DNA of 58,402 nt, taken from the IMG/VR virus record IMGVR_UViG_3300035701_000037, positions 1-58,402 of that record. The stretch is one strand, 5' to 3'. The DNA comes from a virus. Its lineage: Duplodnaviria > Caudoviricetes. The notes below the pieces were generated by a model that saw only the letters and a program-made list of their open reading frames with translations, was not told the origin of the DNA and ran no database searches. Position numbers and translations under genes: made by a program. This document shows positions 2,765 through 47,820 of the stretch, piece after piece; positions within the stretch are counted from its first letter, which is position 1; each line of letters starts with the position of its first letter.

Positions 2765-2774
2765 AGAGGCTGAT

Positions 2775-27136: not shown

Positions 27137-27640
27137 ATGGAATTCTGGCGCCATGAAGGGCGATGGCATGTGGAAATGGATGCCTACGAGTGGGCACTCC
27201 TCGGCGCATTCCGGCGGGCGCATCTATTGCCAGACAAGGTCCTTCGGACATTCGTGAAATTTGCCGATCACCGGATACCAGCGGCTGACCGCATCGATGG
27301 CACGATCGTCATGCAGATGAAGGGCGGAACCACTCGATATCCGCCCGCCGCCTGTCAGTGGCTTCGACGCCATTTCCGGTGTTTGTCCGCCACAGAGGAC
27401 TTCGACTGGGCCGCGATCAGAAAACGCCTGCAGCGGATCGTGCCTTTGCGCAGGTTTTTCCCGTGGGAAACGGTTGATGAGGTCCTGGTGGCCCTTTACA
27501 GAGAGCAACGATCGCATGATCGGTTGGAAGCCATCGAACTTCGTCGGAGGCAGCGCCACGAGGAACAGACTTGTCGATCCGACATTATGCAGGGAGAAGG
27601 GGACGACAGGCACGAATCGGGGGAGGCCGAGGAACCTTGA
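27137..27640 (+). CDS. hypothetical protein
   Basis: RBS aggag. Confidence 0.5.
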   Translation: MEFWRHEGRWHVEMDAYEWALLGAFRRAHLLPDKVLRTFVKFADHRIPAADRIDGTIVMQMKGGTTRYPPAACQWLRRHFRCLSATEDFDWAAIRKRLQRIVPLRRFFPWETVDEVLVALYREQRSHDRLEAIELRRRQRHEEQTCRSDIMQGEGDDRHESGEAEEP

Positions 27641-29013
27641 GCAACCTTGGATACCTTATCGAGCTGTGGAGCATCGGGCACCTGCGGGCGAACCCGCGCA
27701 ATTACCGGGCGCACCCGCCCGAGCAGATCGAGGTATTGCGGCAGAATATCCGCAGACATGGCCTTGAAAAGCCGATCGTGGTCGCCGAGGACGGCACGAT
27801 CCTGGCCGGCCACGGCATCCTCGAAGCCGCGCGCCTCGAAGGCTATGAACAAGTCCCGGTCCATATCTACCATGGGGGCGATGCAGAGGCATTTCTGATC
27901 GACGATAACGGGAGCGATCGTCTGGCCCAAGACGATGAGCGCATCCTAGTGCAGTTGCTGCGCGAGCGGCAGTCGGCGGGCACACTGGGATCCACCGGAT
28001 GGACTGATGACGACCTGCGGGAGATGATGGCGCGCCTCGATATGTTGGACGAGGGCCTGCCGGCGGATCCGGGGGCCGGCGAGCCGCCGGCGCACGCGGT
28101 CACGCACCGCGGCGAGGTCTGGGTGATGGGGCGGCACCGCCTGATCTGTGGCGACTCCCGGGACGCGAGGGTGATGGAAACGATCCTCGCCGGCGAGCGG
28201 GCGGCCCTGTGCGTGACCTCGCCTCCCTACGGTGTCGGCAAGGAGTACGAGGAGAAGGGCATCACGCCCTGGTTCGAGACCGTCCGGCCAGTCATTCAGA
28301 ACCTGGCCCGGTTCGCGGAGATCGTGGTCTGGCAGATCGGCGATCTCTACACGACCGGAAGCCAGTTCATTGAGCCCACCATGGCACATTCCGCGCAGAT
28401 CTTTCTGGATGCCGGCATGCGGCCGATCTGGACCCGCATTTGGGAGAAACAGGGGATGAATTTCGGCATCGGCCCTTACCACCTGGTCTCGAACAAGCCG
28501 GTGCAGCAGTACGAGTACTTGGCGGCATTTGCCAGCGCACTGGCCGAGGACGCGGGCGGCGAGGTGCCCGAGATCCGGGAGTATGGCTTCGTCTGCGCCT
28601 TTGCGGGGGCGCAATACCGCTTCCTGCGCCGCCTGACCCAGGCGGAGCGGCGGGCATGGGGATACGCGGGAATCTGGCGCATCAACACGGTCGTCGAGAA
28701 CAAAGAGCACCCGGCGATGTTCCCGCTGGAGATCCCGGAGCGCTGCATCCGCATGCACAGCGACCCCGACAATCTGGTCCTGGAACCATTTTCTGGCGCA
28801 GGAACGACCATAATTGCCGCAGAAAGGCAGGGCAGGCGCTGCTGCGCGGTGGAATTGTCACCCGCCTACTGCGACGTGGCCGTGGACAGGTGGCAGCGCA
28901 TGACGGGTTTGCAGGCGCAGTTGGAGGGCAACGGAGCACTGTTCGACGAACGGCGGCAGCGGGATGGGGCAGCCGCGGCATCGGGCGCATTTGGCGGTCG
29001 CGAAGGGGGATGA
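27637..29013 (+). CDS. ParB-N domain fused to an N4/N6 DNA methyltransferase
   Basis: NPRNYRAHP, ILAGHG; HRLICGDS, TSPPY, HPAMFP, EPFSGAGTT. Confidence 0.88.
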   Translation: MSNLGYLIELWSIGHLRANPRNYRAHPPEQIEVLRQNIRRHGLEKPIVVAEDGTILAGHGILEAARLEGYEQVPVHIYHGGDAEAFLIDDNGSDRLAQDDERILVQLLRERQSAGTLGSTGWTDDDLREMMARLDMLDEGLPADPGAGEPPAHAVTHRGEVWVMGRHRLICGDSRDARVMETILAGERAALCVTSPPYGVGKEYEEKGITPWFETVRPVIQNLARFAEIVVWQIGDLYTTGSQFIEPTMAHSAQIFLDAGMRPIWTRIWEKQGMNFGIGPYHLVSNKPVQQYEYLAAFASALAEDAGGEVPEIREYGFVCAFAGAQYRFLRRLTQAERRAWGYAGIWRINTVVENKEHPAMFPLEIPERCIRMHSDPDNLVLEPFSGAGTTIIAAERQGRRCCAVELSPAYCDVAVDRWQRMTGLQAQLEGNGALFDERRQRDGAAAASGAFGGREGG

Positions 29014-29017
29014 CGCC

Positions 29018-29584
29018 TTGCCGAGGGGGCCGGAAGAGCGGGAGGCGATCAAGCAGAGGCAGGACCGGGCGTGGCATTTGCACACGATCAGGAAGCTGAC
29101 CGTGCCCGAAGTGGGCCGCGTGCTCAACGTCTCGGAGCGGACCATCCTGCGGGATCTGGCCGCGGCGCGGCGGAAGAACCTGGCCGCATTCAGGAAAGAC
29201 GCGAGCAAGGCCGACTGGCTGATGATCAACGCCATGGAAGCCCTCGGCGAATCCAACGCGATTATGCGCCAGGCGTGGACCGATCTGGTCAGTTCGCCGG
29301 AGGGATCGGCAGTGCGCGCCGGCTTCCTCAACGTCTTGCTGCGGGCGCTCGAGCGACGCATCGAGATCCTGCAGTCGCTGGGGCTGCTGGCCAAGGCGCC
29401 GGAAAGGATGTTGATGGGTGACCTCGATATCTCTCAACTCTCGGATTCAGAGCTTGAGGCTCTCCACGCGGGGCTCAAAGCGGAAGAGGAATGTCTTGCT
29501 CTCCCAGCTGGAGCGGGCGATCCGGGACCGGCGGAATCCGGCGGCGTGGATGCAGTCGTGCCTGCAGATCCGAACCAAAGATAG
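29018..29584 (+). CDS. terS: terminase small subunit (HTH)
   Basis: EVGRVLNVSERTILRDL HTH; directly upstream of terL; TTG start after aaggggg. Confidence 0.7.
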   Translation: MPRGPEEREAIKQRQDRAWHLHTIRKLTVPEVGRVLNVSERTILRDLAAARRKNLAAFRKDASKADWLMINAMEALGESNAIMRQAWTDLVSSPEGSAVRAGFLNVLLRALERRIEILQSLGLLAKAPERMLMGDLDISQLSDSELEALHAGLKAEEECLALPAGAGDPGPAESGGVDAVVPADPNQR

Positions 29585-31037
29585 ACGAGCTGTCCAGTTG
29601 GCGCCGAACGCGGTGCAGGTGCAGTATCTCGCCGAGCGCACCAACCGGGATGTGATACTCAAAGCGCGGCAGGTCGGGATCACGACGATCGTCTCCGCCC
29701 TATTCTTCTACGACACGATCACCAGGCCGAACACGGCATCGGTCATCGTCGCCCACGACCGCGAGAGCACGGAGCTCGTATTCCGCATCGTGCAGTTATT
29801 CTGGCGGCGGCTGCCGGACGCAATTCGGGAGAGGGCCGGGCCAACACATTTCGCTAGCCGGCGGGAGTTCTTCTGGCCGGCGATCAACAGCCAGTTCTAC
29901 ATCGGGACGGCGGGGGCTGTGACGTTCGGACGCGGCCAGACAATCAACAACTTGCACTGTTGCGAGTTCGCCTTCTGGCCCAGAGCCGAAGAATCAATGG
30001 CGACCCTGCTGGAGGCCGTGCCGGCGGACGGGCGAGTGGTCATCGAGTCCACGGCCAACGGAGTGGGCAATCATTTCCACACGGTATGGCGGGCGGCCGT
30101 GGACAGGCAGAGTACATTCCGAGCGCACTTCTTCCCCTGGTGGCGCGAGCCAGCATACCGATTGGCGGGCGAGCCACTCGGAGATCTGAGGGCCGATGAG
30201 GCCGCGCTGCGGGCGCAGGGATTCGATGATGACCAGATCCGCTGGCGCCGGACTAAGGAGCGCGAGCTCGGCGAGCGCTTCGTCCAGGAACACCCCGAGG
30301 ACGACGTGACTTGTTTTTTGGCCAGCGGGCGATGTTGCTTCGATGCCCTGGCATTGCGCCAGTTGCTCGGCCACATAGGCTCGGAGCCGCCGCCGCGGCG
30401 TGTGCTCGGACTGGAGAATGGCGCCGGAGCCACCTCGTTCGCGCCGGCGCACTTGCTCCTCTGGGCTTACCCCGAACGCGGGCATCTCTACGCCATCGGA
30501 GCGGACGTGGGCGAAGGACTGGCTGGAGGCGACGCCTCGTGCGCACAGGTGATAGACCGTGAGACCGGAGAACAGGTGGCGGAGCTGCATGGGCGCGTGG
30601 CACCGGATAGGTTCGGGCATTTGCTGGACGTCCTCGGCCGCTATTACGGCATGGCGACCATCGGGGTCGAGCGCAACAACCACGGGCATTCGACGCTCAA
30701 CACGCTGCGCAATGTCTGCCACTACCCCAGGCTCTACTACTACATGCGCTACGACCGCACTGCGCGGAAGAACCAGCCGGTGCTGGGCTGGCCGACCGAC
30801 CAGGCCACGAAGCCGATCCTGGTTGACGACCTGGTGGCGGCGGTGAACGGCGGTCACCTGCGGGTGCATTCGCCCGGGCTGGTGGATGAGTGTCTCACGT
30901 TCATCTCGAAGGACAATGGCGGGCAGGAGGCGCAAGAGGGCAAATACGATGACAGGGTGATGGCTGCGGGGATCGCCTGGCAGGTGCGCAAGCGTGGCGT
31001 CGCACGCGGCACCACCCAGAGGCCGCGAGGTTGGTGA
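29418..31037 (+). CDS. terL: terminase large subunit (start uncertain)
   Basis: ILKARQVGIT, NLHCCEFAFW, IESTANG, nuclease IGADVGEG, VERNNHG, DDRVMA. Confidence 0.92.
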   Translation: MTSISLNSRIQSLRLSTRGSKRKRNVLLSQLERAIRDRRNPAAWMQSCLQIRTKDRRAVQLAPNAVQVQYLAERTNRDVILKARQVGITTIVSALFFYDTITRPNTASVIVAHDRESTELVFRIVQLFWRRLPDAIRERAGPTHFASRREFFWPAINSQFYIGTAGAVTFGRGQTINNLHCCEFAFWPRAEESMATLLEAVPADGRVVIESTANGVGNHFHTVWRAAVDRQSTFRAHFFPWWREPAYRLAGEPLGDLRADEAALRAQGFDDDQIRWRRTKERELGERFVQEHPEDDVTCFLASGRCCFDALALRQLLGHIGSEPPPRRVLGLENGAGATSFAPAHLLLWAYPERGHLYAIGADVGEGLAGGDASCAQVIDRETGEQVAELHGRVAPDRFGHLLDVLGRYYGMATIGVERNNHGHSTLNTLRNVCHYPRLYYYMRYDRTARKNQPVLGWPTDQATKPILVDDLVAAVNGGHLRVHSPGLVDECLTFISKDNGGQEAQEGKYDDRVMAAGIAWQVRKRGVARGTTQRPRGW

Positions 31038-31260: not shown

Positions 31261-31337
31261 ACAACTGAATACTCGCCGGCGTTGCGATGACGAGGCGAGC
31301 CGCTTCAAGCCCACAGAGGGCCGGCGGCTCGCCTTTT
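31261..31337 (+). ncRNA. cis-regulatory leader 1 (ACAACUGAAUA plus alternative antiterminator/terminator)
   Basis: ggcgag (31294-31299) pairs either with ctcgcc (31272-31277) or within terminator aggcgagccgc/gcggctcgcct-TTT. Confidence 0.65.
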
Positions 31338-31370
31338 GTATTGACTGCAGGATCGAAGAAGGAGCCGACT

Positions 31371-32900
31371 ATGGCGATCGATTTCAGGACGTATCCGCCG
31401 GCCGGCCACACAGACAGAGTGGCCGCCTACGGCAAGTTCGAAAAACTCTTCATCGGGGACCACAAGACAGTCTTCAATGTGCAAGTCGGCCCCTATCAGG
31501 CACTGCGCTACATCGTGGCCAATTTCCCGCAAACACTCTCGCGACTTTGCGCCGACATGCTCTTCGGCGAGCAGCCGGACTTCATGGCCGGCCAGCAGGA
31601 GGGACCCGAGCGCGAAAAGGCGCAGGCGGCGCTGGACAGCATGACCCAACTCAACAGCCTCCACGTGGTCAATTACGAATCGGCTCTCTCGAATTCTTTC
31701 CGGGGGGATGCTATCTACAAGGTCTGGTGGGGCGCCCCGGCCGGCGACTTCGGCGTGGAGAGCAAACCGCGCGCAGTCATCCAGGAAGTCCCCGCCGCGA
31801 TCTACTTCCCGGAGGTGGCCGAGGACGACGTGCGGGAGATCCGTCGGGTCACGCTCGCGTGGACAAAGCGCGATCCCAAGATCCCCACCATGCAATACCT
31901 GCGCGTCGAGGAACACGAGCCAGGCACGATAAAGCATCGCTTACTGCTGCTGACTGGCCAATCGCCCGGGCAGGAAGTGCCCCTCAACACGCTCGAGGAA
32001 TACAAGAACCTCCCGACAGAGGAAGAGACCGGCCTGCCGGTTATCCCGGTCGTGCATATCCCGAACTTCCGCTATGGCTCGCGCTTCTGGGGCATCAGCG
32101 ACTACCAGGGTCTCGACGCCCTCTTCGAGGCAATGAACAACCGCCTGTCGCAGATCGAGATCGTACTGGACAAACACGTGGCCCCGAAGATCATCTTGCC
32201 TCCCGGGTTCATCGACGATCAAGGCAAAGTGCGGTTCGACTCGATGGAGGCGGTGGAAATGACGGCGGGAGATATGCCGCCGAGTTACCTCACGTGGGAG
32301 GGACAGCTTACGGCCGCCGGCGCGCAGTACGATCGCCTGCTCGACCTGCTGATGATCACGGCCGAGATCGCGCCATCGTTGTTCGGTCTGGAGAAGTTCG
32401 GGCTGGCGGAGAGTGGCCGTGCATTGCGGCTGCGGTTGCTGCGGACCCTGGCGAAGATCAATCGGAAGCGCCTCTACTACGACCGCGGGCTGGCAGAGGT
32501 ACTGCTGATTGCACAGATGCTGGACGCAGCCAAAGGCGCGGGGGGTTATACGCCGGTGAAACCCAATATCCAGTGGGCGGACGGTCTCCCGGAAGATATC
32601 GTCGAGATGGTGCAGACGGAGGCCCAGCGATTGGCGGCGGGCAATAGCTCGATCGAATCCTCGATTCGGCGTTTGGACGGGCCGGATGCGGTGGAGGCGG
32701 AGATGGATCGGATCGCCGAGGAAGCGGGCCTATTTGGGGCCCTGATGGGCGCGACCGGCGGCCGTGGCGGGAAGGTCGAGCCCCCAGCCGTCCCCGGAGG
32801 CACGAGCGGCCAAGGCGGGCAACAGGGTGGGACGACCGAAACCCCAGGCCAGACCACCGGGGCAGCGGCCGGGGCACAACCAACCGGAGCCACCCAATGA
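31371..32900 (+). CDS. portal protein (SPP1/A118-like)
   Basis: Follows terL; LCADMLFGE, FWGISDY, ESGRALRLRL, IQWADGLP. Confidence 0.88.
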   Translation: MAIDFRTYPPAGHTDRVAAYGKFEKLFIGDHKTVFNVQVGPYQALRYIVANFPQTLSRLCADMLFGEQPDFMAGQQEGPEREKAQAALDSMTQLNSLHVVNYESALSNSFRGDAIYKVWWGAPAGDFGVESKPRAVIQEVPAAIYFPEVAEDDVREIRRVTLAWTKRDPKIPTMQYLRVEEHEPGTIKHRLLLLTGQSPGQEVPLNTLEEYKNLPTEEETGLPVIPVVHIPNFRYGSRFWGISDYQGLDALFEAMNNRLSQIEIVLDKHVAPKIILPPGFIDDQGKVRFDSMEAVEMTAGDMPPSYLTWEGQLTAAGAQYDRLLDLLMITAEIAPSLFGLEKFGLAESGRALRLRLLRTLAKINRKRLYYDRGLAEVLLIAQMLDAAKGAGGYTPVKPNIQWADGLPEDIVEMVQTEAQRLAAGNSSIESSIRRLDGPDAVEAEMDRIAEEAGLFGALMGATGGRGGKVEPPAVPGGTSGQGGQQGGTTETPGQTTGAAAGAQPTGATQ

Positions 32901-33196
32901 GTCCACCAATTGATCGCGAGTGCCGCAGGCTTGCGTCTGCGGTTATCTGGAGAGCATTCCTAGATGCCACGAGCCCGGAACAGGCGCACCAGTGTGAAAC
33001 TCACGCGATTGCTGGGAGACAGAACCACGAAGAGGCCCGCCGTTTCTTCGACCGTGGCTCGCCTGGCCTGGACTTCTGGTGCGATATGGCAGGGATGGAT
33101 GCGGAGACAGTCTCCGTCCGGGCCGTGGTATTGATCGCTCGCGCGGATGCTACCAGGCGCGCGCCGATCGCCGCGCAAGGCGGCATGGCCCCGTGA
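32897..33196 (+). CDS. hypothetical phage protein
   Basis: RRLASAVIWRAFLDA...FWCDMAGMD. Confidence 0.55.
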   Translation: MSPPIDRECRRLASAVIWRAFLDATSPEQAHQCETHAIAGRQNHEEARRFFDRGSPGLDFWCDMAGMDAETVSVRAVVLIARADATRRAPIAAQGGMAP

Positions 33197-33480
33197 CCAG
33201 GATCTTCCACAGCCGCGTTTACGGAGCGATCAACAAGCGGCGCCGCCGGGCATTGGGGCTGGTCGGGTTCAAACGCGAGCACGTCTGGAATCTCATGGCC
33301 CTCGAGGAGGTACACTTGCGGGCGCGGGCCGCGGCTGCGGCCTACCGGATGCTCCCCTGCTGGCGGCGGGCCCTGATACGGATCAGTCGGTTGTGGCCCA
33401 TGCTGGTGCGTTTTCTGCTGAGCCGGCGGCCCGTGTGGAAGTTGTTCGGGCGAAGGCCACGAGGAAACCAGCGAGGTTGA
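33193..33480 (+). CDS. hypothetical basic protein
   Basis: GTGA overlap; fills the gap before the minor capsid gene. Confidence 0.4.
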   Translation: MTRIFHSRVYGAINKRRRRALGLVGFKREHVWNLMALEEVHLRARAAAAAYRMLPCWRRALIRISRLWPMLVRFLLSRRPVWKLFGRRPRGNQRG

Positions 33481-33489
33481 GAGGCCTCG

Positions 33490-35655
33490 ATGCCCAAACT
33501 GATATCGGCCAGTCGCGCTCAAGAATTCAGACGGGCCTTCGATGGGCAGATCGGCGACCTGGCGGCGCTCTACCGCAATGCGGCTGCCGATGCACTCGAC
33601 GTGCTCACCAGGGCTGCCTCGACAGTTGCCTCGCGCCAGCGGGCTCTCGCACTCTTGCGGCAGTACGAGACCATGCTCGCGGAAATGAACGATGAGGCCG
33701 CGCTCTGGATTCACCTCAACGTCCCGGAAGCCTATGACGCGGGGGTCACCATTGCCGAGGAGGGGATCGGCAATATCCAGCGCGCCGGAATCAATCTGCG
33801 TCCCGGGCGCCGGCGGGCAGTGGCGCTCCGGGAGCGGGACGTCTTCTCGCGAGTCCACCAGGAGGCGGCCCAAGCGATTGCCGCGGCGATGGTTGACCGC
33901 ATGAGTGCGGCGGTGCTGGAGATCGGCCGGCGCGTGGACGATGTCTTCCGGCAAGAGGGGATGGTGGCGGTGGCGCGGGGGATCGCGGCCGGCAGGGCAC
34001 GGGTCGAGGTTAGCCGCGAGATTAAGGATCGGCTGATCCAGGCCGGGCAACCAGTCTTCCGGGATCGGCTCGGCCGCATCTGGACCCTCGACCGATACTC
34101 GGAGATGGTCGCTCGCACAACTACGCGTGAAGCGATGACCCAGGGGACGATCAATCGGCTGCGCCAGGAGGATATCCTGCTGGCGCGAGTCTCCTCTCAT
34201 CCGTGCGAAGATTTCTGTTGTGCGCCGGGTACGCGAGTGCTAACATCCGCGGGCTGGCATCGCATCGAGACTATTCAGGAGGGCGACCTGGTGATGACGC
34301 ACCAGGGCCGATGGCGCGCCGTGACAACCGTCATGCGGCGGCACTATAAGGGGCCCCTCATTGAGATCGGCGGGCTACGGGTCACGCCAGACCATCGGGT
34401 TTTGACCCGACGGGGATGGATGAAAGCGGGCGCACTACTGGGCCGGGACCAGATCGTGCTCCTTAAGGCCGTTGAGGACCGCGGTCGGCAATGTGCGGGG
34501 GTCTTTGCCCGATGCAATGCGGAGGACCTGATAGCCCAAGGCGCGGAGGTTGGCATCCCGAACACCATCTCTCTCAGCGCGCCGCTTGGCCTTGTGCCAG
34601 CCGCCGCCGTCGATCTCAACGATCAAATTAGCCCCGGGGAAGAAGAAATCAGCCACATACGCCTCGATGGGTTGTTGGAAGATATAGGGGATGCTGCGAC
34701 GGTCGAGTTCGGTTATCACCGCACGCTCGATCGCGGATGGATTTCGGCGGTAGGCCGCCGCGTTGCTCGTGGCCCTTCTGCTTCGGGTGACCGGATTCCG
34801 CGCGAGATTTCTCGCGCGCAATCGTCTGCCTGCCTCGGCATGCCATCGGCTACGATCCGGATGGTTGGGATCAGTGAAGCCCTTGGGGGCAAGGCCTCCG
34901 GTTGGCTTGGCCTTGATGCCATAGCGCGGCAGCCATCTCCGGGACAAGTGGGCATTGTAGGAGCGGCTGCGGCCCAATTCCTGCGCGATGTCAGCAAGAT
35001 TGGCTCCTTCTGCGACGCGGCGGCGGAGAAACTGCTCCAGTGGCTCTCCGAGGCGATCGCTGAACTTCTTTTCGGTCCCGCGCATCCGCAGCTCGCCGAA
35101 GCACTTGGAGGAACATGTCTGGGAGCGACCGCAGGCTTTGATAAGGGAGGGAAAAGAATCGGCAGCCTGGCCGCACACCGGGCAGATGGTCTTCATGCGC
35201 GGAGTATAGACGGTTCTGGCAGTTCGCGCAATAACTACCGCGGCCCCGTCTGGAATCTATCCGTGGCAGGCGATGAGAGCTACGTGGCGGAGGGGATTGT
35301 AGTCCACAACTGCATCTACTTCGAGGGCATGATTGTAAACATCGGCTCGAAGCCTCACCCGGTCTATCCAGACATCTCCGCGATCGGCGGCGGCCCGCCG
35401 TTCCACCCCCAGTGCACTCACGTGTTGGAGCCCTTCGTCGAACGACTGGCATCGCGCGAGGAGCGACAGCAGGGCAAGGCCGCACCGAAGGTGCTGATAC
35501 CGGCAGGCAGGTCGAGAGAGCAGCAATTCGGCCTTCTTCAGCGCCGGTTCACGAAGCAGTTCCCCGATCGAGCGCGAGAGGAAGGCAAGCGATTGCGCAC
35601 CGAGGGTGCGCGGGCTCAGGCGCGGCAAGAGCGGGCGGCGGCGCGGGCGCGGTAA
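33490..35655 (+). CDS. minor capsid/head morphogenesis protein interrupted by an intein (356 aa after splicing)
   Basis: DRLGRIWTLDRYSEMVARTT, VSSH.C...C..FEG, PPFHPQCTH. Confidence 0.88.
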   Translation: MPKLISASRAQEFRRAFDGQIGDLAALYRNAAADALDVLTRAASTVASRQRALALLRQYETMLAEMNDEAALWIHLNVPEAYDAGVTIAEEGIGNIQRAGINLRPGRRRAVALRERDVFSRVHQEAAQAIAAAMVDRMSAAVLEIGRRVDDVFRQEGMVAVARGIAAGRARVEVSREIKDRLIQAGQPVFRDRLGRIWTLDRYSEMVARTTTREAMTQGTINRLRQEDILLARVSSHPCEDFCCAPGTRVLTSAGWHRIETIQEGDLVMTHQGRWRAVTTVMRRHYKGPLIEIGGLRVTPDHRVLTRRGWMKAGALLGRDQIVLLKAVEDRGRQCAGVFARCNAEDLIAQGAEVGIPNTISLSAPLGLVPAAAVDLNDQISPGEEEISHIRLDGLLEDIGDAATVEFGYHRTLDRGWISAVGRRVARGPSASGDRIPREISRAQSSACLGMPSATIRMVGISEALGGKASGWLGLDAIARQPSPGQVGIVGAAAAQFLRDVSKIGSFCDAAAEKLLQWLSEAIAELLFGPAHPQLAEALGGTCLGATAGFDKGGKRIGSLAAHRADGLHARSIDGSGSSRNNYRGPVWNLSVAGDESYVAEGIVVHNCIYFEGMIVNIGSKPHPVYPDISAIGGGPPFHPQCTHVLEPFVERLASREERQQGKAAPKVLIPAGRSREQQFGLLQRRFTKQFPDRAREEGKRLRTEGARAQARQERAAARAR
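34435..35196 (-). CDS. DUF559/Vsr-like endonuclease with N-terminal Zn-finger and HTH, nested antisense in the intein
   Basis: CPVC..CSSKC; LADIAQELGRS; PSAIE..FQQPI..YVADF..LIVEIDG..WH..RD..RD..LRALGYQVLRI. Confidence 0.88.
   Translation of the reverse strand: MKTICPVCGQAADSFPSLIKACGRSQTCSSKCFGELRMRGTEKKFSDRLGEPLEQFLRRRVAEGANLADIAQELGRSRSYNAHLSRRWLPRYGIKAKPTGGLAPKGFTDPNHPDRSRWHAEAGRRLRARNLARNPVTRSRRATSNAAAYRRNPSAIERAVITELDRRSIPYIFQQPIEAYVADFFFPGANLIVEIDGGGWHKAKRRAERDGVRDANLRALGYQVLRIASGKDPRTLPTAVLNGLKEHDLVPAQ
35203..35231 (-). promoter_or_regulatory. sigma70-type promoter, leaderless, for the antisense endonuclease
   Basis: Minus strand reads TTGCGC-17 bp-TATACT-6 nt-ATG(35196). Confidence 0.7.
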
Positions 35656-35675
35656 CAAAAATCCGCCTGGGGGGA

Positions 35676-35703
35676 TTGACGGGCGCTGAAATTGGGATAC
35701 AAT
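35676..35703 (+). promoter_or_regulatory. sigma70-type promoter for the head-module leader
   Basis: TTGACG-16 bp-TACAAT. Confidence 0.7.
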
Positions 35704-36806: not shown

Positions 36807-36906
36807 GGATTCGCCCCGGGCAACCGGGGTTACCAGACGCATCCGGCGAGCGGTGAATCACCGGGAGACGCCGACGGGCGGTCAACCACGGGAGGAGACC
36901 AGGATC

Positions 36907-37620
36907 ATGGCTAAGACACCAGAGGAAATCGAAGCGGAACGCAAGGCGCAGGAAGCTGCAGACGAAGCCAAGCGAAAAGCCGATGAAGAAGAGGCGAAAC
37001 GCAAGGCCGATGCTGCGGCCGCAGCCAGCGTTGCAGACAAGGGCGGCTTCAAGGTCACCCTAACTGACGTCCAGCGCAAAGCCCTGCTCGAGGGCAAGCC
37101 GCTCGAGTTGTCGGATGAGCAGTATACCGGCGGCGTCCGAGACCAGGTGGAGAAGGAGAGGCGGTCACGCAGGGCGGCTGAAAAACAGCTGGCCGATATC
37201 GCCAAGCAGCGGGAAGAGGAAGAGAAAAAGGCTCTCGTCGAGCAGGAGAAGTACAAGGAGCTCTACGAGAAGGAAGCGGCGGGCCACAAGACCACTCAGG
37301 ACGCTCGAAATGCCGACGCGATCCGGAGCGCTTTTCTGGTGGCTGCTGTGAGGGCCGGCGTCGTGGACGTGGACCTCGCATTCCTCGCTGCCAAGGCATC
37401 TCCCCTGTTCGCGAAGATCAGCCTCGATGACAATGGCGCCGTCACCGGCGTCAATGAAGTGCTTGAAGACCTCGTCAAGCAGAAGCCTTTCCTGGTTTCC
37501 CAGCAGCGGCAAACGGTAGGCGGGCCGAGCAATCCCAACACAGGGGAATTGCCGGCCCCGAAGACGCTCGCCGAGGCCGGGGACCAACTTGAGTCGAGAA
37601 TGAAGACCGGGCAGGTCTGA
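36907..37620 (+). CDS. capsid scaffolding protein
   Basis: Charged coiled coil, EQEKYKELYE, LVKQKPFL; precedes the capsid gene; RBS ggagg. Confidence 0.8.
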   Translation: MAKTPEEIEAERKAQEAADEAKRKADEEEAKRKADAAAAASVADKGGFKVTLTDVQRKALLEGKPLELSDEQYTGGVRDQVEKERRSRRAAEKQLADIAKQREEEEKKALVEQEKYKELYEKEAAGHKTTQDARNADAIRSAFLVAAVRAGVVDVDLAFLAAKASPLFAKISLDDNGAVTGVNEVLEDLVKQKPFLVSQQRQTVGGPSNPNTGELPAPKTLAEAGDQLESRMKTGQV

Positions 37621-37663
37621 CCGGCCGAGTCCAAGCGGCGAGCCAAATTGAAGGAGGATCGAA

Positions 37664-38647
37664 ATGGCGGCGACGCTTATCACGCTGGCGGAGCTCATCG
37701 TAAAGCTCTATGCCGGCCCGTGGGTCGACGCGCTACAGAAGGAGACCTTCCTGCTCGTCCGCCTGGGTGAGCGGGGCAATGTGAAGACCGGCCGAGGCAA
37801 TGGGATCCGTTGGCCCGTTCGATATGCGGGGAACTCGGCAGTGGGATCGTATGGCGAGGGCGACGCGGCCGGCGGCGCTGGCAACCAGTCCGCCAAGGAG
37901 GCATTCCTTGGCTGGAAGTTCCAGAAGGCCGAGATCTCCATCGGCGGGCCTTCCTTGGCAGTCGGCGCGCAGGGCGGGATGGTAGTTGATCCGCTCCGCT
38001 TTGAGTTGGACAACGGCCTGCTGGACATGCGGGCTGCGATCAATACGCAGATCATGGGTGATGGGACGGGCAACAGCGGCAAGGATTTGACCGGCCTGCT
38101 GGCAGCCCTGGCCGACACCGGGACCTACGCGGGACTTGACCGCGGCAGTTACACCTGGTGGAAGGCATATGTCAATGCGAACGGCGGCACGCCGCGCAAC
38201 CTGACTGAAGCGCTGATGCGCGACGTGAAAAAGACAATGGAGAGCAGAGGCGGCACGCTCACGGCGATCTATGCCGGGGCAAACCAGTGGTACGCCTACG
38301 GCGACCTCTTGCGGGCCGAACGGCGGCAACAGGATCCGCAGACCCTGACCGGCGGCTACCAGGCCCTTGACTTCGAGGGGACCCCGCTCATCAAGGTACC
38401 GGGGTACGTCCAGACGAGGATGGAGTTCGTTGACGAGCGGCTGATCGAGTACCACATGCTCCCGGTCACCAGCGAGAACACGGCGATAGCCGGGCTGCGC
38501 ACAGTGGCCGCGGTCCCGGGCATGCCGGGGTTCGGCATCCTGGTGCTTGGCGCAACCAAGGATGCAGCCGACTTCCAGGTGATCCACTACAGCCAACTCG
38601 TGGTGCGCAATCCCTACCGGATGGGCGTGCTGAAGGACCTGGCCTAA
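37664..38647 (+). CDS. major capsid protein
   Basis: Position after scaffold, 327 aa; GDGTGNSGKDLTGL, TYAGLDR, LTGGYQALDFEGTP, QLVVRNP. Confidence 0.85.
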   Translation: MAATLITLAELIVKLYAGPWVDALQKETFLLVRLGERGNVKTGRGNGIRWPVRYAGNSAVGSYGEGDAAGGAGNQSAKEAFLGWKFQKAEISIGGPSLAVGAQGGMVVDPLRFELDNGLLDMRAAINTQIMGDGTGNSGKDLTGLLAALADTGTYAGLDRGSYTWWKAYVNANGGTPRNLTEALMRDVKKTMESRGGTLTAIYAGANQWYAYGDLLRAERRQQDPQTLTGGYQALDFEGTPLIKVPGYVQTRMEFVDERLIEYHMLPVTSENTAIAGLRTVAAVPGMPGFGILVLGATKDAADFQVIHYSQLVVRNPYRMGVLKDLA

Positions 38648-44181: not shown

Positions 44182-44193
44182 GAGCGTGAAGAA

Positions 44194-47100
44194 GTGACTG
44201 TCGGCGAAGTGAAAGCGATCCTCTCAGCGGACCTGACGAAGTTCCGGGCGGGGCTCCTGCAGGCCAACTCGCTGCTCGACCAGGCCGGGGCATCGGCCAT
44301 GAAGGCGAGCGCGATGCTGGCCGGGTTCGGAGCGGCTGTGGCCGGCGGGATGGGCATGGCGGTCAGAGAGAGTATCGAGATACAAGCAGCGCTGGCGGAT
44401 CTCAACAAGGTCCTGAAGCTGAGCGATGACGCCCTCGAGGAACTAGCCAAGCGGTTAGATGTCCTGGGGATGGCCACAGGGATCGCGGATGAAGCCCTCG
44501 CTGAAGCCCTCGCCAACATCGGCAAGGCGGGACTGGCGGGAGCAGAGGGCATGCAGGTCCTGGAGGCCGCCACAAGGGCGGCCGTCGCAGGGCGGGCAGA
44601 CATCAAGTTAGCAGGCGATGCCCTGGTCTCGATCATCCGCGCTTACAACCTCCATGGTTCGGAGGCGGCAAAGGTCACTGATGCCCTTTACCAGGCCAGT
44701 ATCAAAGGCCGCATGAGTCTGGAAGCCGTCTCAGAGGCAGTCAAGGGAATGGCGCCGATCGCTTCTCAGCTGGGGGTCAGCTACGTGGACCTTGCGGCTG
44801 CGCTGGCGACGACTACGACCGTCGGTTACGATGCTGAGAACAGCATCATGGGCCTTTCGCGGGCGATGATCAACCTGACGAACCCTGGCAAGCAACTCCA
44901 GGCCGCGTTGAAGGCGGCGGGGTATGAAACGGGCCAGGCCCTGATCCAGGCGAAGGGCTTTACCGGCGCGATCCAGTTCCTGACCGAAGCAGCGGGCGAT
45001 GACGAGCAGGCGATGATCCAGATGGCCGGAGGGGCGCGGGCCTACAAGGCCGTCGTAGCCCTGGCGGCGGATGGGGGCAGGCTTTTCGCCCAGAAACTCG
45101 CTGAGATCGCGGACTCGGCGGGAGCCGTAGATACGGCATTCGGCATGATGGAAAAAACCTTCAGCTTTCAGTGGTCCCGCTTCGTCCGGGCAATGAAAGA
45201 GGCCGGCGAGGCAGTCGGCAATGTGTTGCTGCCGGGCCTGACACTTCTGGCCCGGATCCTGGCCGCTCTCGTAGGAACGGTCCAGTTGATGCCGGGGCCA
45301 TTGAGAACGGTGGTGGTAGGGGCGGTCTCTTTGGCCGCAGCCATCGCCGCCCTCGCAGGATCGTTCATCCTCTTCAAGTTGCACCTGGCGGAGACGATCG
45401 TGCTCACGGGCAGACTGGTCATATCCCTGGCGAGTGCGGTTGTCGCTGCGATCGCCGGTTCGGCCACCTTGCAAGCGGCGCTGGCTGGCTTGCGCGCGGC
45501 ATTGATCGCGACGCGCGTAGCAATCGAATTCTTCTTCATCTCGACTGGTCCGATCGGATGGACTCTCGCTCTTCTGGCGGCGGTCGGGGCCGTGGTGGCC
45601 GCCCTGGTCCTCTGGTACAAGCACCAGGCGAACCTGAACAGACAGGCCGAGGAAACCCATCGGCTTACCCAGCAGCAGGCCGAGGATCTGGCAAACCTGC
45701 TCGATCACCTGCAGAAACTTCAGGTGGCACGGCTGAAGGAACAGGCCGCGGGGAAACCGGCGAACCTCGCTGCACTGAAAGATGAGGCCGACACCCAGGA
45801 TAAGATCGCCGATCTTTACCCGAAACTGATCGACTATGTGGACAAGTATGGCCATGCCCACCTCATCGCCGCCAAGAGTCTGGAGACCTTGACCGAAGTC
45901 CAGAAGAAGAACCGCCAGGCGGCAATAGCAAGCGCCGCCGCCCAAGTTGCGGAGGCGGCGCAGAGGCGGTCCGACCTGGCCGACCAACTGGCAGCGGCAA
46001 TAAAGATGAGGGAAAGATTCGAGGCGCTCCCGCCCAGCAAGCAAGCCTTCATACTCTCCGAAGTACCCGGAATGCGCGGCAAATCTGCGGCGCAGGTCAT
46101 TGAGGAGATGCAGAGCAAGGAGAAGGACCTCCGCGCCCAGGTCCGGGCGGCCAATGCTGAGTACGAAGAGCGTCAGAAGGTGCTCCACCAGGTTGGCATG
46201 ACGCAGGAGCGGATCGCCAGGGAGCAGGCAGCGGCGGATGCAAAAGGCCGCGCAGAGGCGCATCGCGGCCTTGTCCAACGTCTGGCCGCCATTGACCAGG
46301 AGGCCGCAGCGCTGAGGCGGCTGGGGGTGACGGCGGATGATATCAACCGATGGGTTGCCGTTCGGCGTCTCGAGGCTTACAAGAAATCCAGCGATGAGAT
46401 CCTGAAACTGCAGGCCCAGGTCCTCGAGGCCGAGGGCAAGAAGCACGCGGCGCGACTGGTCCAGATAGAGATCGAGTCCAACGAGCTACTCGAGAAGGCG
46501 AAGACCGCCAAGGTGCCCGAGCCCGAACGCAAGGGACTGGTCCGGCGCTTCATCGCCGGCGAGTTGAAGACGGCCGCCAAGGAAGCGGCCGATGCTGCCC
46601 GCGAGAAGACCAAGGCCGCACTTGAGGCCGAAGGCCAGCTGGCCGAAGTTCTCAAGCAGTATGAGAACGACGTCGCCGGCGTGCGCGCTTATGTCCACAA
46701 TGTTCGCATGCGGCAGATCCGCGCCGAGGCGGACGAGATAAAGCGGCAGATGGTCGAAGCGCAGATGCCGGCCGCCCGGGCGGAGATCGCTGCGCGGGAA
46801 TATGTTACCGCAAAATCCATCGAGCTCGCGAAGGAAGAAGCGGACGCGAGGGCGGCGATATTCGAGAAGTCGGCGCCCCTGATCGTGAGCAGGTGGCAGG
46901 CTGCTGCCTCGGCCATGTACGAGGCTGGCACCATGAAGGCCAGCGAGTACCTGGCCAGCCTCGCCCGGCAACTTGATCTAATCCATCAAATCAACCTGGC
47001 CCAAGCCGCTGCGGGGAGGCCGGCGCTCCTGAGGGACGAGGAGATGCGGCTCGCCCAGACGATCTTCTCCGAGCGCAAGCGCATGTTGTCGGAACTCGAG

Positions 47101-47820
47101 AGCGCCGAGAAGCGCCTGGCCGATGAACGCAAGCGGTGGAGCCAGGAAGAGCTCGAGCAGCGCCGCCGGGTGCACGAGGCCGAACTCTCAATGATATCCC
47201 TGAGCTTCGAGCACCAGCGGGATCTGTTGAAGGCTCGGGGCATTGAGGACCAGGCCGCTACGGCGCGGATCGCCAGCGATGAGCTGGCCGCCCTGCAACT
47301 GCGCCGGCAGACGGAGATGCTGACCGGGCAGGAGCGGCTCGAATCGCTCCAGCGGGAGCGCGACCTGGTGATGCAGATGGCCGAGGCGCAGATGGCGCCC
47401 GCAGGCGGCGCCCGTGGCGCGCTCGAGGCGATCTACACGGAGATGGTGTCGGCCCGGCAGCAGATGGCCCTGGAGGACAAGCGGGCATTCGAGGAGCGCA
47501 GGCGCGAGGCCAACGAGGCGGTCACCAAGATCGAGACCGAGCAGACCACACTGCGCAGCCAGATCGCGCTGACAGCGACCAACATCGCAGACGCAGCCAG
47601 GCGCGTGTTCGAAGGCATCCGGAATCAACTCGAGATGCTCGGCACCGTGAGGATCGTCCCCACCGTGCAGATGGCCGCCGTCGGCGGCCGCGCGGTTCCC
47701 ACGCGGGTGAACAACTTCTACATCAGTGGCCAGCGAGTGGGGGCCGGCGTTGACATAGATAAGATCGCCGATCAACTGGCCGCCATGCTCGAGCGGGAGC
47801 ACCAATTTGCGAGGGACTGA
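44194..47820 (+). CDS. tape measure protein (TP901-type core)
   Basis: 1208 aa, helical and Ala-rich; central hydrophobic segments; position. Confidence 0.92.
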   Translation: MTVGEVKAILSADLTKFRAGLLQANSLLDQAGASAMKASAMLAGFGAAVAGGMGMAVRESIEIQAALADLNKVLKLSDDALEELAKRLDVLGMATGIADEALAEALANIGKAGLAGAEGMQVLEAATRAAVAGRADIKLAGDALVSIIRAYNLHGSEAAKVTDALYQASIKGRMSLEAVSEAVKGMAPIASQLGVSYVDLAAALATTTTVGYDAENSIMGLSRAMINLTNPGKQLQAALKAAGYETGQALIQAKGFTGAIQFLTEAAGDDEQAMIQMAGGARAYKAVVALAADGGRLFAQKLAEIADSAGAVDTAFGMMEKTFSFQWSRFVRAMKEAGEAVGNVLLPGLTLLARILAALVGTVQLMPGPLRTVVVGAVSLAAAIAALAGSFILFKLHLAETIVLTGRLVISLASAVVAAIAGSATLQAALAGLRAALIATRVAIEFFFISTGPIGWTLALLAAVGAVVAALVLWYKHQANLNRQAEETHRLTQQQAEDLANLLDHLQKLQVARLKEQAAGKPANLAALKDEADTQDKIADLYPKLIDYVDKYGHAHLIAAKSLETLTEVQKKNRQAAIASAAAQVAEAAQRRSDLADQLAAAIKMRERFEALPPSKQAFILSEVPGMRGKSAAQVIEEMQSKEKDLRAQVRAANAEYEERQKVLHQVGMTQERIAREQAAADAKGRAEAHRGLVQRLAAIDQEAAALRRLGVTADDINRWVAVRRLEAYKKSSDEILKLQAQVLEAEGKKHAARLVQIEIESNELLEKAKTAKVPEPERKGLVRRFIAGELKTAAKEAADAAREKTKAALEAEGQLAEVLKQYENDVAGVRAYVHNVRMRQIRAEADEIKRQMVEAQMPAARAEIAAREYVTAKSIELAKEEADARAAIFEKSAPLIVSRWQAAASAMYEAGTMKASEYLASLARQLDLIHQINLAQAAAGRPALLRDEEMRLAQTIFSERKRMLSELESAEKRLADERKRWSQEELEQRRRVHEAELSMISLSFEHQRDLLKARGIEDQAATARIASDELAALQLRRQTEMLTGQERLESLQRERDLVMQMAEAQMAPAGGARGALEAIYTEMVSARQQMALEDKRAFEERRREANEAVTKIETEQTTLRSQIALTATNIADAARRVFEGIRNQLEMLGTVRIVPTVQMAAVGGRAVPTRVNNFYISGQRVGAGVDIDKIADQLAAMLEREHQFARD

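What the first reader, a model, noticed from the sequence alone, without database searches (positions are those of the whole stretch)
34216..35310. Intein whose homing endonuclease is encoded on the opposite strand
Seen: complete splicing motifs (C1, TxxH, HN/C+1) at a conserved Cys of the minor capsid protein. The ~250 residues between blocks B and F match no endonuclease motif I recognise, but their exact in-register reverse complement (35196-34435) is a full ATG-to-TAG gene with Zn-finger, HTH and DUF559/Vsr-like nuclease motifs. Both strands are open for 254 codons. Known: intein endonucleases are normally in-frame domains of the intein polypeptide. Inference: a two-strand composite selfish element in which splicing removes the antisense-derived filler and a separately expressed nuclease drives homing. 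I know of no description of this arrangement.
Basis: partly seen in the sequence, partly recalled or inferred. Interest (0 to 1): 0.95.

Follow-up and report, generated by a model that had tools for sequence, protein, structure and literature searches.

The report
Phage intein with antisense homing endonuclease
A phage head-protein gene carries a self-splicing intein whose homing nuclease is a separate gene written on the opposite DNA strand; the arrangement is real and under selection, but it was already described in 2025, so this is a well-supported new example and not a new kind of element.

Summary
The + ORF 33490-35655 (721 aa) is a MuF-like minor capsid protein interrupted at 34216-35310 by a class-1 intein (Cys1, TxxH, HN/Cys+1). 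Intein-free homologues read ADFC|IYYEN, which fixes the boundaries. The minus ORF 34435-35196 (253 aa) is codon-for-codon in register and encodes a DUF559/Vsr-like (EDxHD-type) nuclease.

Between the window and its closest relative (L033), the slot evolves neutrally in the sense frame (omega about 1.0) and under purifying selection in the antisense frame (omega 0.23-0.29). A second pair gives the same result. AlphaFold2 folds the antisense protein (best PDB match is the I-Bth0305I catalytic domain) but not the sense filler.

Seven further elements of this type were found, all in MuF genes and all in the same register. One is in a 45% GC Vibrio phage, whose nuclease avoids every codon that would stop the sense frame (P about 2e-8).

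The novelty claim fails. A 2025 preprint (Gosselin et al.) describes antisense Vsr-like endonucleases in full inteins of actinobacteriophages, with minor capsid proteins among the hosts of its non-canonical inteins. Antisense LAGLIDADG cases date from 1998. "Both strands open" is cheap at 64% GC (P about 0.16-0.23). Expression, splicing and cleavage are untested.

The parts
33490..34215 (+). N-extein of the MuF-like minor capsid / head morphogenesis protein (aa 1-242)
   Evidence: Pfam Phage_min_cap2 E 3.6e-14. Colinear with intein-free homologues up to ...DF. Sense omega 0.23 versus L033.
34216..35310 (+). Class-1 intein, 365 aa (C243..N607), followed by Cys+1 at 35311
   Evidence: Hint_2 and TIGR01443 hits. 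Boundaries fixed by the intein-free alleles ADFC|IYYEN. C1, T57-P58-x-H60 and H364-N365 are invariant in the 4 aligned inteins.
34216..34461 (+). N-terminal Hint part (intein aa 1-82, blocks A and B)
   Evidence: AF2 pLDDT 74-86 (block means) over aa 1-70, falling to 62 over aa 71-80; under 50 from aa 83. Sense omega 0.27, with differences mostly at codon position 3 (14, 13, 34).
34435..35196 (-). Antisense, in-register homing-endonuclease gene, 253 aa (ATG 35196, TAG 34437-34435)
   Evidence: DUF559 E 4.8e-13. Antisense omega 0.23-0.29 against sense omega 0.97-1.08. AF2 mean pLDDT 76.3. Foldseek top match is 3r3p, I-Bth0305I.
34513..34776 (-). DUF559 / Vsr-like (EDxHD-type) catalytic core, nuclease aa 141-228
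   Evidence: Pfam stretch. phmmer against PDB gives 3hrl E 1.1e-3 and 3r3p E 1.6e-3. E157, D183, D196, H201 and D210 align with I-Bth0305I E170, D196, N208, H213 and D222 (alignment, residue numbers from PMC3239194).
34957..35022 (-). Helix-turn-helix-like stretch of the nuclease (aa 59-80)
   Evidence: HTH_38 E 0.0049 and HTH_23 E 0.011, both below the Pfam cut-offs. Helices with pLDDT 83-93 in the model. Putative.
35101..35184 (-). CxxC...CxxxC zinc-finger-like N-terminus of the nuclease (C5, C8, C28, C32)
   Evidence: Read from the translation. The four Cys are shared with L033 and present in similar form in L005 and L037. No HMM hit, and pLDDT is 54-61 there.
35203..35231 (-). Promoter-like motif TTGCGC-17-TATACT ending 6 nt before the nuclease ATG (would give a leaderless mRNA)
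   Evidence: The same geometry is found in L033, L004 and L037. By my post hoc definition there are 19 such sites in 116,804 nt, so P is about 0.0011 at a given ATG. The tool's own sigma-70 scan found none at its threshold. Inferred.
35230..35310 (+). C-terminal Hint part (intein aa 339-365, blocks F and G, ...VVHN)
   Evidence: AF2 pLDDT 80-88 (block means from aa 341; segment under 50 ends at aa 338). TIGR01443. Sense omega 0.24 for aa 570-607.
35311..35655 (+). C-extein (114 aa), starting with Cys+1; holds the empty second insertion site (FHPQ|C)
   Evidence: Sense omega 0.28.

Best explanation
This is a two-strand selfish element in the MuF-like minor capsid gene of an uncultivated siphovirus-type phage.

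A class-1 intein sits at a conserved Cys. The usual endonuclease slot between blocks B and F holds a free-standing-type homing endonuclease gene (zinc-finger-like + HTH-like + DUF559/Vsr-like EDxHD core). That gene lies on the opposite strand with its codons exactly in register with the sense codons.

In this register a sense-frame stop can arise only from a TTA, CTA or TCA codon of the nuclease. Synonymous codon choice therefore keeps the host frame open.

Shown here: both ORFs are intact. The Hint parts and exteins are under purifying selection in the sense frame. The slot is neutral in the sense frame and under purifying selection in the antisense frame. The antisense protein has a nuclease fold with the catalytic residues in place.

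Inferred: the sense read-through gives an unstructured linker of about 256 residues that leaves with the intein on splicing (721 aa to 356 + 365 aa). The nuclease is made from its own, probably leaderless, minus-strand transcript. It cuts intein-free alleles at the ADFC|IYY site so that repair copies the whole composite.

The most likely origin is invasion of a mini-intein by a free-standing nuclease gene.
For: Domains and boundaries.

Selection per strand, window vs L033: N-extein omega 0.23, Hint-N 0.27, Hint-C 0.24, C-extein 0.28. In the slot, sense omega is 0.97-1.08 and antisense omega is 0.23-0.29. Differences at sense codon positions 1, 2, 3 are 130, 64, 77 in the slot and 68, 63, 135 in the N-extein. 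Amino-acid identity is 59-61% antisense against 37-39% sense. The second pair, L004 vs L037, gives antisense 0.33 and sense 1.23.

Composition: sense GC1 exceeds GC3 only inside the slot.

Folds, each from a 4-sequence alignment: the antisense protein has mean pLDDT 76.3. Its top PDB match is the I-Bth0305I catalytic domain (E 3.1e-4, prob 1.00, TM 0.63 on the target). The five EDxHD positions are occupied. The sense intein has pLDDT 74-88 in the Hint parts and below 50 for aa 83-338. No Pfam family matches the sense slot.

Recurrence: 8 of 8 elements are in MuF-type genes and in register 0 (window, L033, L004, L005, L037, L040, L002, L048). DUF559 is above cut-off in L033, L004, L005, L037, L040 and L002, and L048 matches my own HMM at E 2.2e-20.

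Selection for an open host frame: the nuclease of the 44.7% GC Vibrio phage uses no TTA, CTA or TCA. Neighbouring genes use them for 51% of Leu and 26% of Ser. P is about 2.4e-8.

Sporadic distribution: the 5 intein-bearing alleles are scattered among 24 intein-free ones, each next to an intein-free allele. Examples are window + L006/L007 (support 100/100) and L037 + L026 (100/99).

Promoter-like motif abutting the ATG in 4 of 7 nuclease starts. The Vibrio ORF has AGGAG 7 nt before its ATG.
Against: There is no expression evidence. No RNA run was available. The tool's sigma-70 scan found 0 sites in 34000-35700. My promoter motif was defined after seeing it. There is no Shine-Dalgarno sequence before the window's ATG.

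Omega values are pairwise Nei-Gojobori estimates at high divergence (pS 0.6-0.65). In overlapping frames, constraint on one frame inflates omega in the other.

The window and L033 inteins are about as diverged (dS 0.8-1.4) as their exteins (dS 1.1-1.5). There is therefore no sign of recent transfer, and vertical descent with repeated loss is not excluded.

The HTH hits are below cut-off, the zinc finger is read by eye, and the model's pTM is 0.45.

Splicing with a 256-residue disordered insert is assumed, not shown. The target of the nuclease is unknown. Related elements sit at two different sites with no evident shared DNA motif.
Confidence: 0.8

Rival explanations
1. The composite is a fixed relic. 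The intein still splices, but the antisense nuclease no longer drives homing. It is either decaying or kept for some other role, and the element is inherited vertically with occasional precise loss.
For: Intein and extein divergence between the window and L033 are similar. L004's nuclease lacks the zinc-finger N-terminus and the His and Asp that align with H201 and D210, which shows that decay occurs in this clade. The preprint reports that some VSR-like cases look vertically inherited (section 15).
Against: Antisense omega is 0.23-0.33 over deep divergence in two independent pairs. All catalytic positions are intact in the window. The start, the stop and the promoter-like motif are conserved with L033. 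The distribution on the extein tree is scattered.
Confidence: 0.13
2. The sense-strand insert is the real, in-frame endonuclease or another domain, and the minus ORF is a chance shadow ORF of a GC-rich gene.
For: In-register shadow ORFs are common in this phage: 23% of 254-codon windows are open, and there is a 399-aa one over the N-extein.
Against: No family matches the sense slot. Sense pLDDT is 23-40. Sense omega is about 1. The minus ORF scores 49.4 bits for DUF559 against a cut-off of 20.6, folds as a Vsr-like nuclease, and carries the third-position substitution pattern.
Confidence: 0.02
3. The gene is dead or the join is an assembly artefact. Either a nuclease gene landed in a minor capsid gene of a defective or chimeric contig, or the intein does not splice.
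For: It is a metagenomic record. Splicing is untested.
Against: CheckV rates the record 100% complete. The structural module around the gene is intact. A second assembly covers the stretch without differences, though from the same reads. The same architecture occurs in 7 other contigs or genomes, including an isolated Vibrio phage. The Hint parts are under purifying selection.
Confidence: 0.05

Closest known systems
Anti-sense VSR-like HEN inteins of actinobacteriophages (Gosselin, Arsenault, Gogarten, bioRxiv 10.1101/2025.01.02.630785; abstract, passages and section 15 read)
   Same: A full, contiguous intein with a Vsr-like nuclease ORF on the antisense strand between the splicing blocks. 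The sense slot has no recognisable fold. Minor capsid proteins are among the host genes of their non-canonical inteins. Their VSR-like nuclease has its catalytic core at residues 144-267 after a long helical N-terminal part, and an HHpred match to 3R3P. The proposed origin is invasion of an intein by a free-standing nuclease gene.
   Different: This phage is an uncultivated metagenomic virus of unknown host. Its nuclease finds no actinobacteriophage by tblastn (2 records, both Vibrio phages), so it appears to be a different lineage. The main text of the preprint holds none of the terms 'codon usage', 'GC content', 'promoter' or 'Vibrio'. I could not see its supplements, which list the clusters.
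Anti-sense or out-of-frame LAGLIDADG endonucleases in inteins. Sources: Synechocystis dnaX and Chloroflexus SpoVR-like (Gorbalenya 1998 and Gogarten 2002, known to me only as cited); Phillips et al., bioRxiv 10.64898/2026.09.14.751524 (abstract and section 17 read); Gordonia phage minor capsid inteins.
   Same: The endonuclease is encoded in another frame of the intein slot. Frame-specific dN/dS contrasts were used for dnaX. Gordonia phage Nordenberg has a MuF intein at the same type of Cys site with an in-register antisense 236-aa ORF.
   Different: A different nuclease family. The 2026 preprint calls the dnaX case a +2 ORF. The Nordenberg ORF gave no Pfam hit at E 0.01, and its LAGLIDADG-like motif was read by eye.
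Fractured genes: split inteins with a free-standing Vsr-like nuclease gene between the halves (Dassa et al. 2009, PMC2677866; abstract and passages read)
   Same: The same nuclease family lies in the same slot of an intein and is encoded as a separate gene.
   Different: There the host gene is broken into two ORFs and spliced in trans. Here the sense frame is continuous. The words 'antisense', 'complementary strand', 'same strand' and 'reverse' do not occur in that paper; 'opposite' (3) and 'orientation' (2) occur only in other senses.
I-Bth0305I, prototype of the EDxHD homing endonucleases (Taylor et al. 2011, PMC3239194; passages read; PDB 3r3p)
   Same: A Vsr-like catalytic fold, the five active-site positions, and a bipartite build with an N-terminal DNA-binding part and a C-terminal nuclease.
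   Different: I-Bth0305I is encoded in a group I intron of recA and has NUMOD repeats. Here the N-terminal part is zinc-finger-like plus HTH-like, the gene lies antisense in an intein, and identity is about 24-26%.

Membership tests
Intein, class 1 | Nucleophilic first residue (Cys/Ser) and block B TxxH | tested here: met
   C243 is the first residue. T57-P58-D-H60 of the intein, with C1, T57, P58 and H60 invariant in 4 aligned inteins. Hint_2 35.8 bits, above the 28.4 cut-off.
Intein, class 1 | C-terminal His-Asn followed by a Cys/Ser/Thr +1 | tested here: met
   ...VVHN|C. TIGR01443 27.1 bits, above the 15.6 cut-off. H364 and N365 invariant.
Intein, class 1 | In-frame insertion that homologues lack, at a conserved host residue | tested here: met
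   Intein-free homologues are colinear, ADFC-IYYEN. 27 of 29 IMG/VR relatives lack an intein.
Intein, class 1 | Protein splicing activity | not testable with these tools
   Inferred from the intact motifs and from purifying selection on the Hint parts.
DUF559 (PF04480) / Vsr-like EDxHD homing endonucleases | Profile match above the curated cut-off | tested here: met
   49.4 bits against a cut-off of 20.6. The same family is above cut-off in 6 of 6 related intein-embedded antisense ORFs tested.
DUF559 (PF04480) / Vsr-like EDxHD homing endonucleases | Vsr-like fold and the catalytic residues E, D, x(H/N), H, D | tested here: met
   Foldseek top match 3r3p, E 3.1e-4; Vsr itself (1cw0, 1vsr) also listed. 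E157, D183, D196, H201 and D210 align to E170, D196, N208, H213 and D222.
DUF559 (PF04480) / Vsr-like EDxHD homing endonucleases | Site-specific cleavage of the element-free allele | not testable with these tools
   No assay possible. The empty-site sequence is known from the flanks and from relatives.
Anti-sense VSR-like HEN intein (Gosselin et al. 2025) | Contiguous sense ORF through the slot, plus a complete Vsr-like ORF on the antisense strand between the splicing blocks | tested here: met
Anti-sense VSR-like HEN intein (Gosselin et al. 2025) | Homology to the actinobacteriophage examples, or an actinobacterial host | tested here: inconclusive
   tblastn of the nuclease against 50,697 phage records hit only 2 Vibrio phages. 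The host is unknown: relatives occur in MAGs of four phyla. The preprint's cluster lists are in supplements I could not open.
Fractured gene / split intein (Dassa et al. 2009) | Host gene broken into two separately translated ORFs | tested here: not met
   A single 721-aa ORF with no stop in the slot.

The most novel reading that the evidence does not exclude
Capture of a free-standing nuclease gene in antisense, in the codon-coincident register, is a general and recurrent way of making mobile inteins in phage MuF genes. It reaches well beyond actinobacteriophages.

The register is obligatory: 8 of 8 Vsr-type elements, plus the Nordenberg ORF. In that register only TTA, CTA and TCA need to be avoided, and that avoidance is actively selected (Vibrio phage, P about 2e-8).

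The nuclease is transcribed as a leaderless mRNA from a promoter embedded in the Hint-C linker coding sequence. That sequence is conserved as an AGT-ATA Ser-Ile pair in the window and L033.

The intein-nuclease unit co-diverges and has moved between two Cys sites 33 residues apart in the same gene. The site-b elements L004 and L037 are closer to the site-a elements than to site-b L005.
Probability: 0.45. Interest if true: 0.55.

Novelty: new member of a known kind. Interest (0 to 1): 0.4.

Why it matters
This is one of the cleaner natural cases of two proteins read from exactly opposed codons of the same DNA, with different selection on each strand. It supports the 'splicing domain first, nuclease captured later' view of how mobile inteins arise.

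It also gives testable material: a defined empty site, a 253-aa nuclease, and a promoter candidate.

Annotation pipelines miss these nuclease genes. The deposited Vibrio phage records annotate only the sense ORF: 'hint domain protein' in MG592631 and 'coil containing protein' in MG592457, whose antisense ORF I did not inspect. A search of 5.8 billion predicted proteins found no relative of the nuclease. Intein surveys based on called proteins will therefore class such inteins as having no endonuclease, or a degenerate one.

None of this changes the fact that the architecture is already in the literature.

Tried and rejected
1. Sense slot as a real domain. No Pfam family, pLDDT below 50, omega about 1. 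Rejected.

2. Minus ORF as a shadow ORF. Rejected.

3. 'Both strands open' as evidence in the window. Rejected: 23% of comparable windows are open, and P = 0.16.

4. The tool's sigma-70 scan found 0 sites. Terminator-like sites numbered 2 against 1.0 expected. Nothing usable came from it. My looser promoter motif is post hoc.

5. Relatives of the nuclease by word-indexed protein search: none at E 1e-3 among 2045 candidates. Single-protein scan of IMG/VR: none. PHROGs: none at 1e-5.

6. Host identification. Genome contigs gave 4 loci, in MAGs labelled Hebobacteria, Bacillota, Actinomycetota and Omnitrophota. No conclusion is possible.

7. RNA evidence: no RNA holder listed. Read laying saw only contigs of the probable source run. 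One other contig gave a 'joint' with 21-letter sides and 98 letters between, which I disregard as another organism.

8. A regex for the sense 'shadow' of the DUF559 core hit 16 of 172 stored proteins. It is crude and is not used as evidence. Of 10 representatives taken, 7 are MuF or minor-capsid proteins. Their DNA could mostly not be fetched: P0091 and P0089 gave nothing, P0043 led to L048, and the A4 scan found only L040's own contig. L051-L054 carry inteins with no match to my nuclease HMM on either strand.

9. A shared DNA target at sites a and b: none evident.

10. Recent gain, tested on L005 vs L012: the spliced genes are only 87.8% identical, so there is no evidence of a recent event.

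11. Beyond the two Gogarten-lab preprints, Dassa 2009 and Taylor 2011, I found nothing on MuF inteins with antisense Vsr-like nucleases. Gorbalenya 1998 and Gogarten 2002 were not read and are known to me only as cited. PMC11855218 (hidden HNH in a phage methylase insertion) was seen as a listing and abstract only. Supplements were closed, so Supplemental Table 1 of the 2025 preprint (clusters 60 and 91, VSR-like) could not be compared with this clade.

Full report
WHAT IS THERE

The window is a complete 58,402-base IMG/VR virus record (CheckV 100%). All likely genes lie on the + strand. The structural module reads:
- large terminase, 29415-31037
- portal, 31287-32900
- the gene in question, 33490-35655
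- scaffold, 36853-37620
- major head protein, 37652-38647
- tape measure, 44182-47820

The 721-aa product matches Phage_min_cap2 (E 3.6e-14). It has a Hint_2 N-terminal part at aa 243-287 and an intein C-terminal region at aa 587-608. It is the only Hint match in the genome. Intein-free homologues read ...ADFC-IYYEN....

The minus ORF 34435-35196 (253 aa, ATG to TAG) has codons that coincide with the sense codons. It matches DUF559 at 49.4 bits against a cut-off of 20.6.

WHICH STRAND CODES IN THE SLOT

The closest relative, L033, is a metagenome contig with the same insertion site, a 365-aa intein and a 253-aa antisense ORF. Window vs L033:

| Segment | Frame | Omega | Differences at sense codon positions 1, 2, 3 |
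|---|---|---|---|
| N-extein | sense | 0.23 | 68, 63, 135 |
| Hint-N | sense | 0.27 | 14, 13, 34 |
| Hint-C | sense | 0.24 | 7, 9, 20 |
| C-extein | sense | 0.28 | 30, 22, 50 |
| Slot | sense | 0.97-1.08 | 130, 64, 77 |
| Slot | antisense | 0.23-0.29 | (sense position 1 is antisense position 3) |

In the slot, amino-acid identity is 37-39% in the sense frame and 59-61% in the antisense frame. A second pair at another site, L004 vs L037, gives antisense 0.33 and sense 1.23. GC1 exceeds GC3 in the sense frame only inside the slot.

These are pairwise Nei-Gojobori values at high divergence and in overlapping frames, so the numbers are rough. The contrast is large and was found twice.

FOLDS

Both models used 4-sequence alignments.
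- The antisense protein has mean pLDDT 76.3. Its best PDB match is the catalytic domain of the homing endonuclease I-Bth0305I (3r3p; E 3.1e-4, prob 1.00). Vsr itself is further down the list. phmmer against PDB finds 3hrl and 3r3p at E about 1e-3.
- Through that alignment and the numbering in Taylor et al. 2011, E157, D183, D196, H201 and D210 occupy the five EDxHD active-site positions.
- The sense intein has pLDDT 74-88 in the Hint parts and below 50 for residues 83-338.

HOW SPECIAL IS DOUBLE OPENNESS

In this 64% GC phage it is not special. The in-register antisense frame is open in 23% of 254-codon windows of 21 likely genes. Given the nuclease protein and the local codon usage, the sense frame would stay open with P = 0.16.

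The reason is simple. In this register a sense stop arises only from a TTA, CTA or TCA codon in the nuclease.

The same architecture in Vibrio phage 1.266.O is a different matter. That phage has 44.7% GC. Its 707-aa Phage_Mu_F + intein protein carries a 245-aa antisense ORF that matches DUF559 at E 1.9e-10. Its neighbours use the three codons for 51% of Leu and 26% of Ser, and the nuclease uses none. P is about 2.4e-8. That is direct evidence that selection keeps the host frame open.

RELATIVES

| Locus | Host gene, insertion site | Antisense nuclease ORF |
|---|---|---|
| L033 | same MuF family, site a (ADF\|C) | 253 aa |
| L004 | same MuF family, site b (FHPx\|C, 33 residues downstream) | 208 aa |
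| L005 | same MuF family, site b | 265 aa |
| L037 | same MuF family, site b | 245 aa |
| L040 | other MuF protein, canonical H-x-N\|CRx site | 239 aa |
| L002 (Vibrio phage 1.266.O) | other MuF protein, canonical site | 245 aa |
| L048 | other MuF protein, canonical site | 232 aa |

All eight elements, the window included, are in register 0 (L048 from the coordinates).

A scan of IMG/VR with the nuclease alignment returned 5 loci. Four lie inside MuF inteins. One (L041) looks free-standing, because its opposite strand matches no family.

On an extein tree of 29 alleles the 5 intein-bearing ones are scattered, and each sits beside intein-free alleles. L018 was dropped from that tree as truncated. 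L031 and L032 were left out as partial.

Hint and nuclease identities co-vary. The window and L033 pair together. L004 and L037 pair together, and are closer to the site-a pair than to L005. So the composite evolves as a unit and has changed site at least once. The two empty sites share no evident DNA motif.

EXPRESSION SIGNALS (INFERRED)

The nuclease would be the only minus-strand gene, so it needs its own promoter. Immediately before its ATG lie:
- window: TTGCGC-17-TATACT-6-ATG
- L033: TTGCAT-17-TATACT-6-ATG
- L004: TTGACC-17-TAAACC-6-ATG
- L037: TTGCAA-17-TATAAT-9-ATG

By a definition made after seeing them, there are 19 such sites in 116,804 nt of the window. P is therefore about 0.001 at a given ATG, and 4 of 7 nuclease starts have one. 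The geometry would give a leaderless mRNA.

The tool's stricter scan found none. L005 has GGGAGG 12 nt upstream of its ATG, and the Vibrio ORF has AGGAG 7 nt upstream. No RNA data were available.

WHAT IS KNOWN

- Gosselin, Arsenault and Gogarten (bioRxiv 10.1101/2025.01.02.630785) report 63 actinobacteriophage inteins with non-canonical HENs. These include VSR-like HENs on the anti-sense strand. They note that minor-capsid inteins carry only non-canonical HENs, that the sense slot has no recognisable fold, and that HHpred links the VSR-like HEN to 3R3P. They propose invasion of inteins by free-standing HENs.
- They cite Gorbalenya 1998 and Gogarten 2002 for anti-sense LAGLIDADG HENs. I did not read those papers.
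- A 2026 preprint on the dnaX intein applies frame-specific dN/dS.
- Dassa et al. 2009 described the split-gene version with the same nuclease family.
- Gordonia phage Nordenberg shows a MuF intein with an in-register antisense 236-aa ORF. I read a LAGLIDADG-like motif in it by eye; Pfam gave no hit.

What this case adds, as far as the main text of the 2025 preprint goes:
- strand-specific selection for the Vsr type
- the register rule and the codon avoidance
- a promoter candidate
- two sites in one gene
- occurrence outside actinobacteriophages

VERDICT

The mechanism is well supported by sequence evidence but untested at the bench. The architecture is already described, so this is a new member of a known kind, with moderate interest (0.4).

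Noticed in passing
L002 (Vibrio phage 1.266.O, MG592631) 1703-3826 minus strand and 2156-2893 plus strand; tblastn hits on both strands of MG592457: A cultivated, 44.7% GC Vibrio phage has the same build. A Phage_Mu_F + intein protein (annotated only as 'hint domain protein') carries an unannotated in-register antisense 245-aa HTH + DUF559 ORF. That ORF has AGGAG 7 nt before its ATG and uses no TTA, CTA or TCA (P about 2.4e-8). In MG592457 I saw only tblastn hits under a CDS annotated 'coil containing protein'; its ORFs were not read.
   Followed up: partly
L004 1566-2522, L005 4826-5944, L037 (intein aa 275-631), against window 34216-35310: The same MuF family carries related intein-nuclease composites at two Cys sites 33 residues apart (ADF|C and FHPx|C). 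The site-b elements L004 and L037 are closer to the site-a elements than to site-b L005. No shared DNA target is evident.
   Followed up: partly
L004 1785-2411 minus strand: This nuclease is shorter (208 aa). It lacks the zinc-finger-like N-terminus and the His and Asp that align with H201 and D210, which may mean it is decaying. Its omega against L037 is still 0.33.
   Followed up: partly
L001 (Gordonia phage Nordenberg) 2636-3346 minus strand: The MuF-like minor capsid gene has an intein at ...VIN|C...HN|CRC with an in-register antisense 236-aa ORF. I read a LAGLIDADG-like motif in it by eye. Pfam gave no hit at E 0.01.
   Followed up: partly
L040 2240-3733 minus strand: The intein in this MuF protein seems to begin with Ser (HFN|SVPSS...) and not Cys. 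It still ends ...VHN|CRS and carries an antisense 239-aa DUF559 ORF.
   Followed up: no
L041 2108-2842 plus strand: A low-GC viral contig holds a 244-aa multi-CxxC + DUF559/Vsr ORF related to the window's nuclease. Nothing recognisable lies on the opposite strand, so it looks like a free-standing relative.
   Followed up: partly
Proteins P0002, P0004, P0005, P0013, P0015 and P0024; L037: Relatives of the MuF protein carry long, variable C-terminal extensions that the window's protein lacks. These include DUF2924/RAMA matches and, in P0002 and P0015, an HExxH-like motif read by eye.
   Followed up: no
window 27520-29013 plus strand: A ParB-like N-terminal part fused to a DNA methyltransferase (phrog_498, E 8.5e-79), just upstream of the packaging genes.
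   Followed up: no
window 33001-34200 minus strand: A 399-aa in-register antisense ORF lies over the N-extein. It shows how readily shadow ORFs arise in this register at 64% GC. I treated it as chance and ran no family search on it.
   Followed up: partly
window 35203-35208 and L033 (sense codons AGT ATA): The candidate -10 hexamer TATACT is kept in both elements as a sense Ser-Ile pair. It uses ATA, the rarest Ile codon in the window's likely genes (68 of 648 Ile codons).
   Followed up: partly
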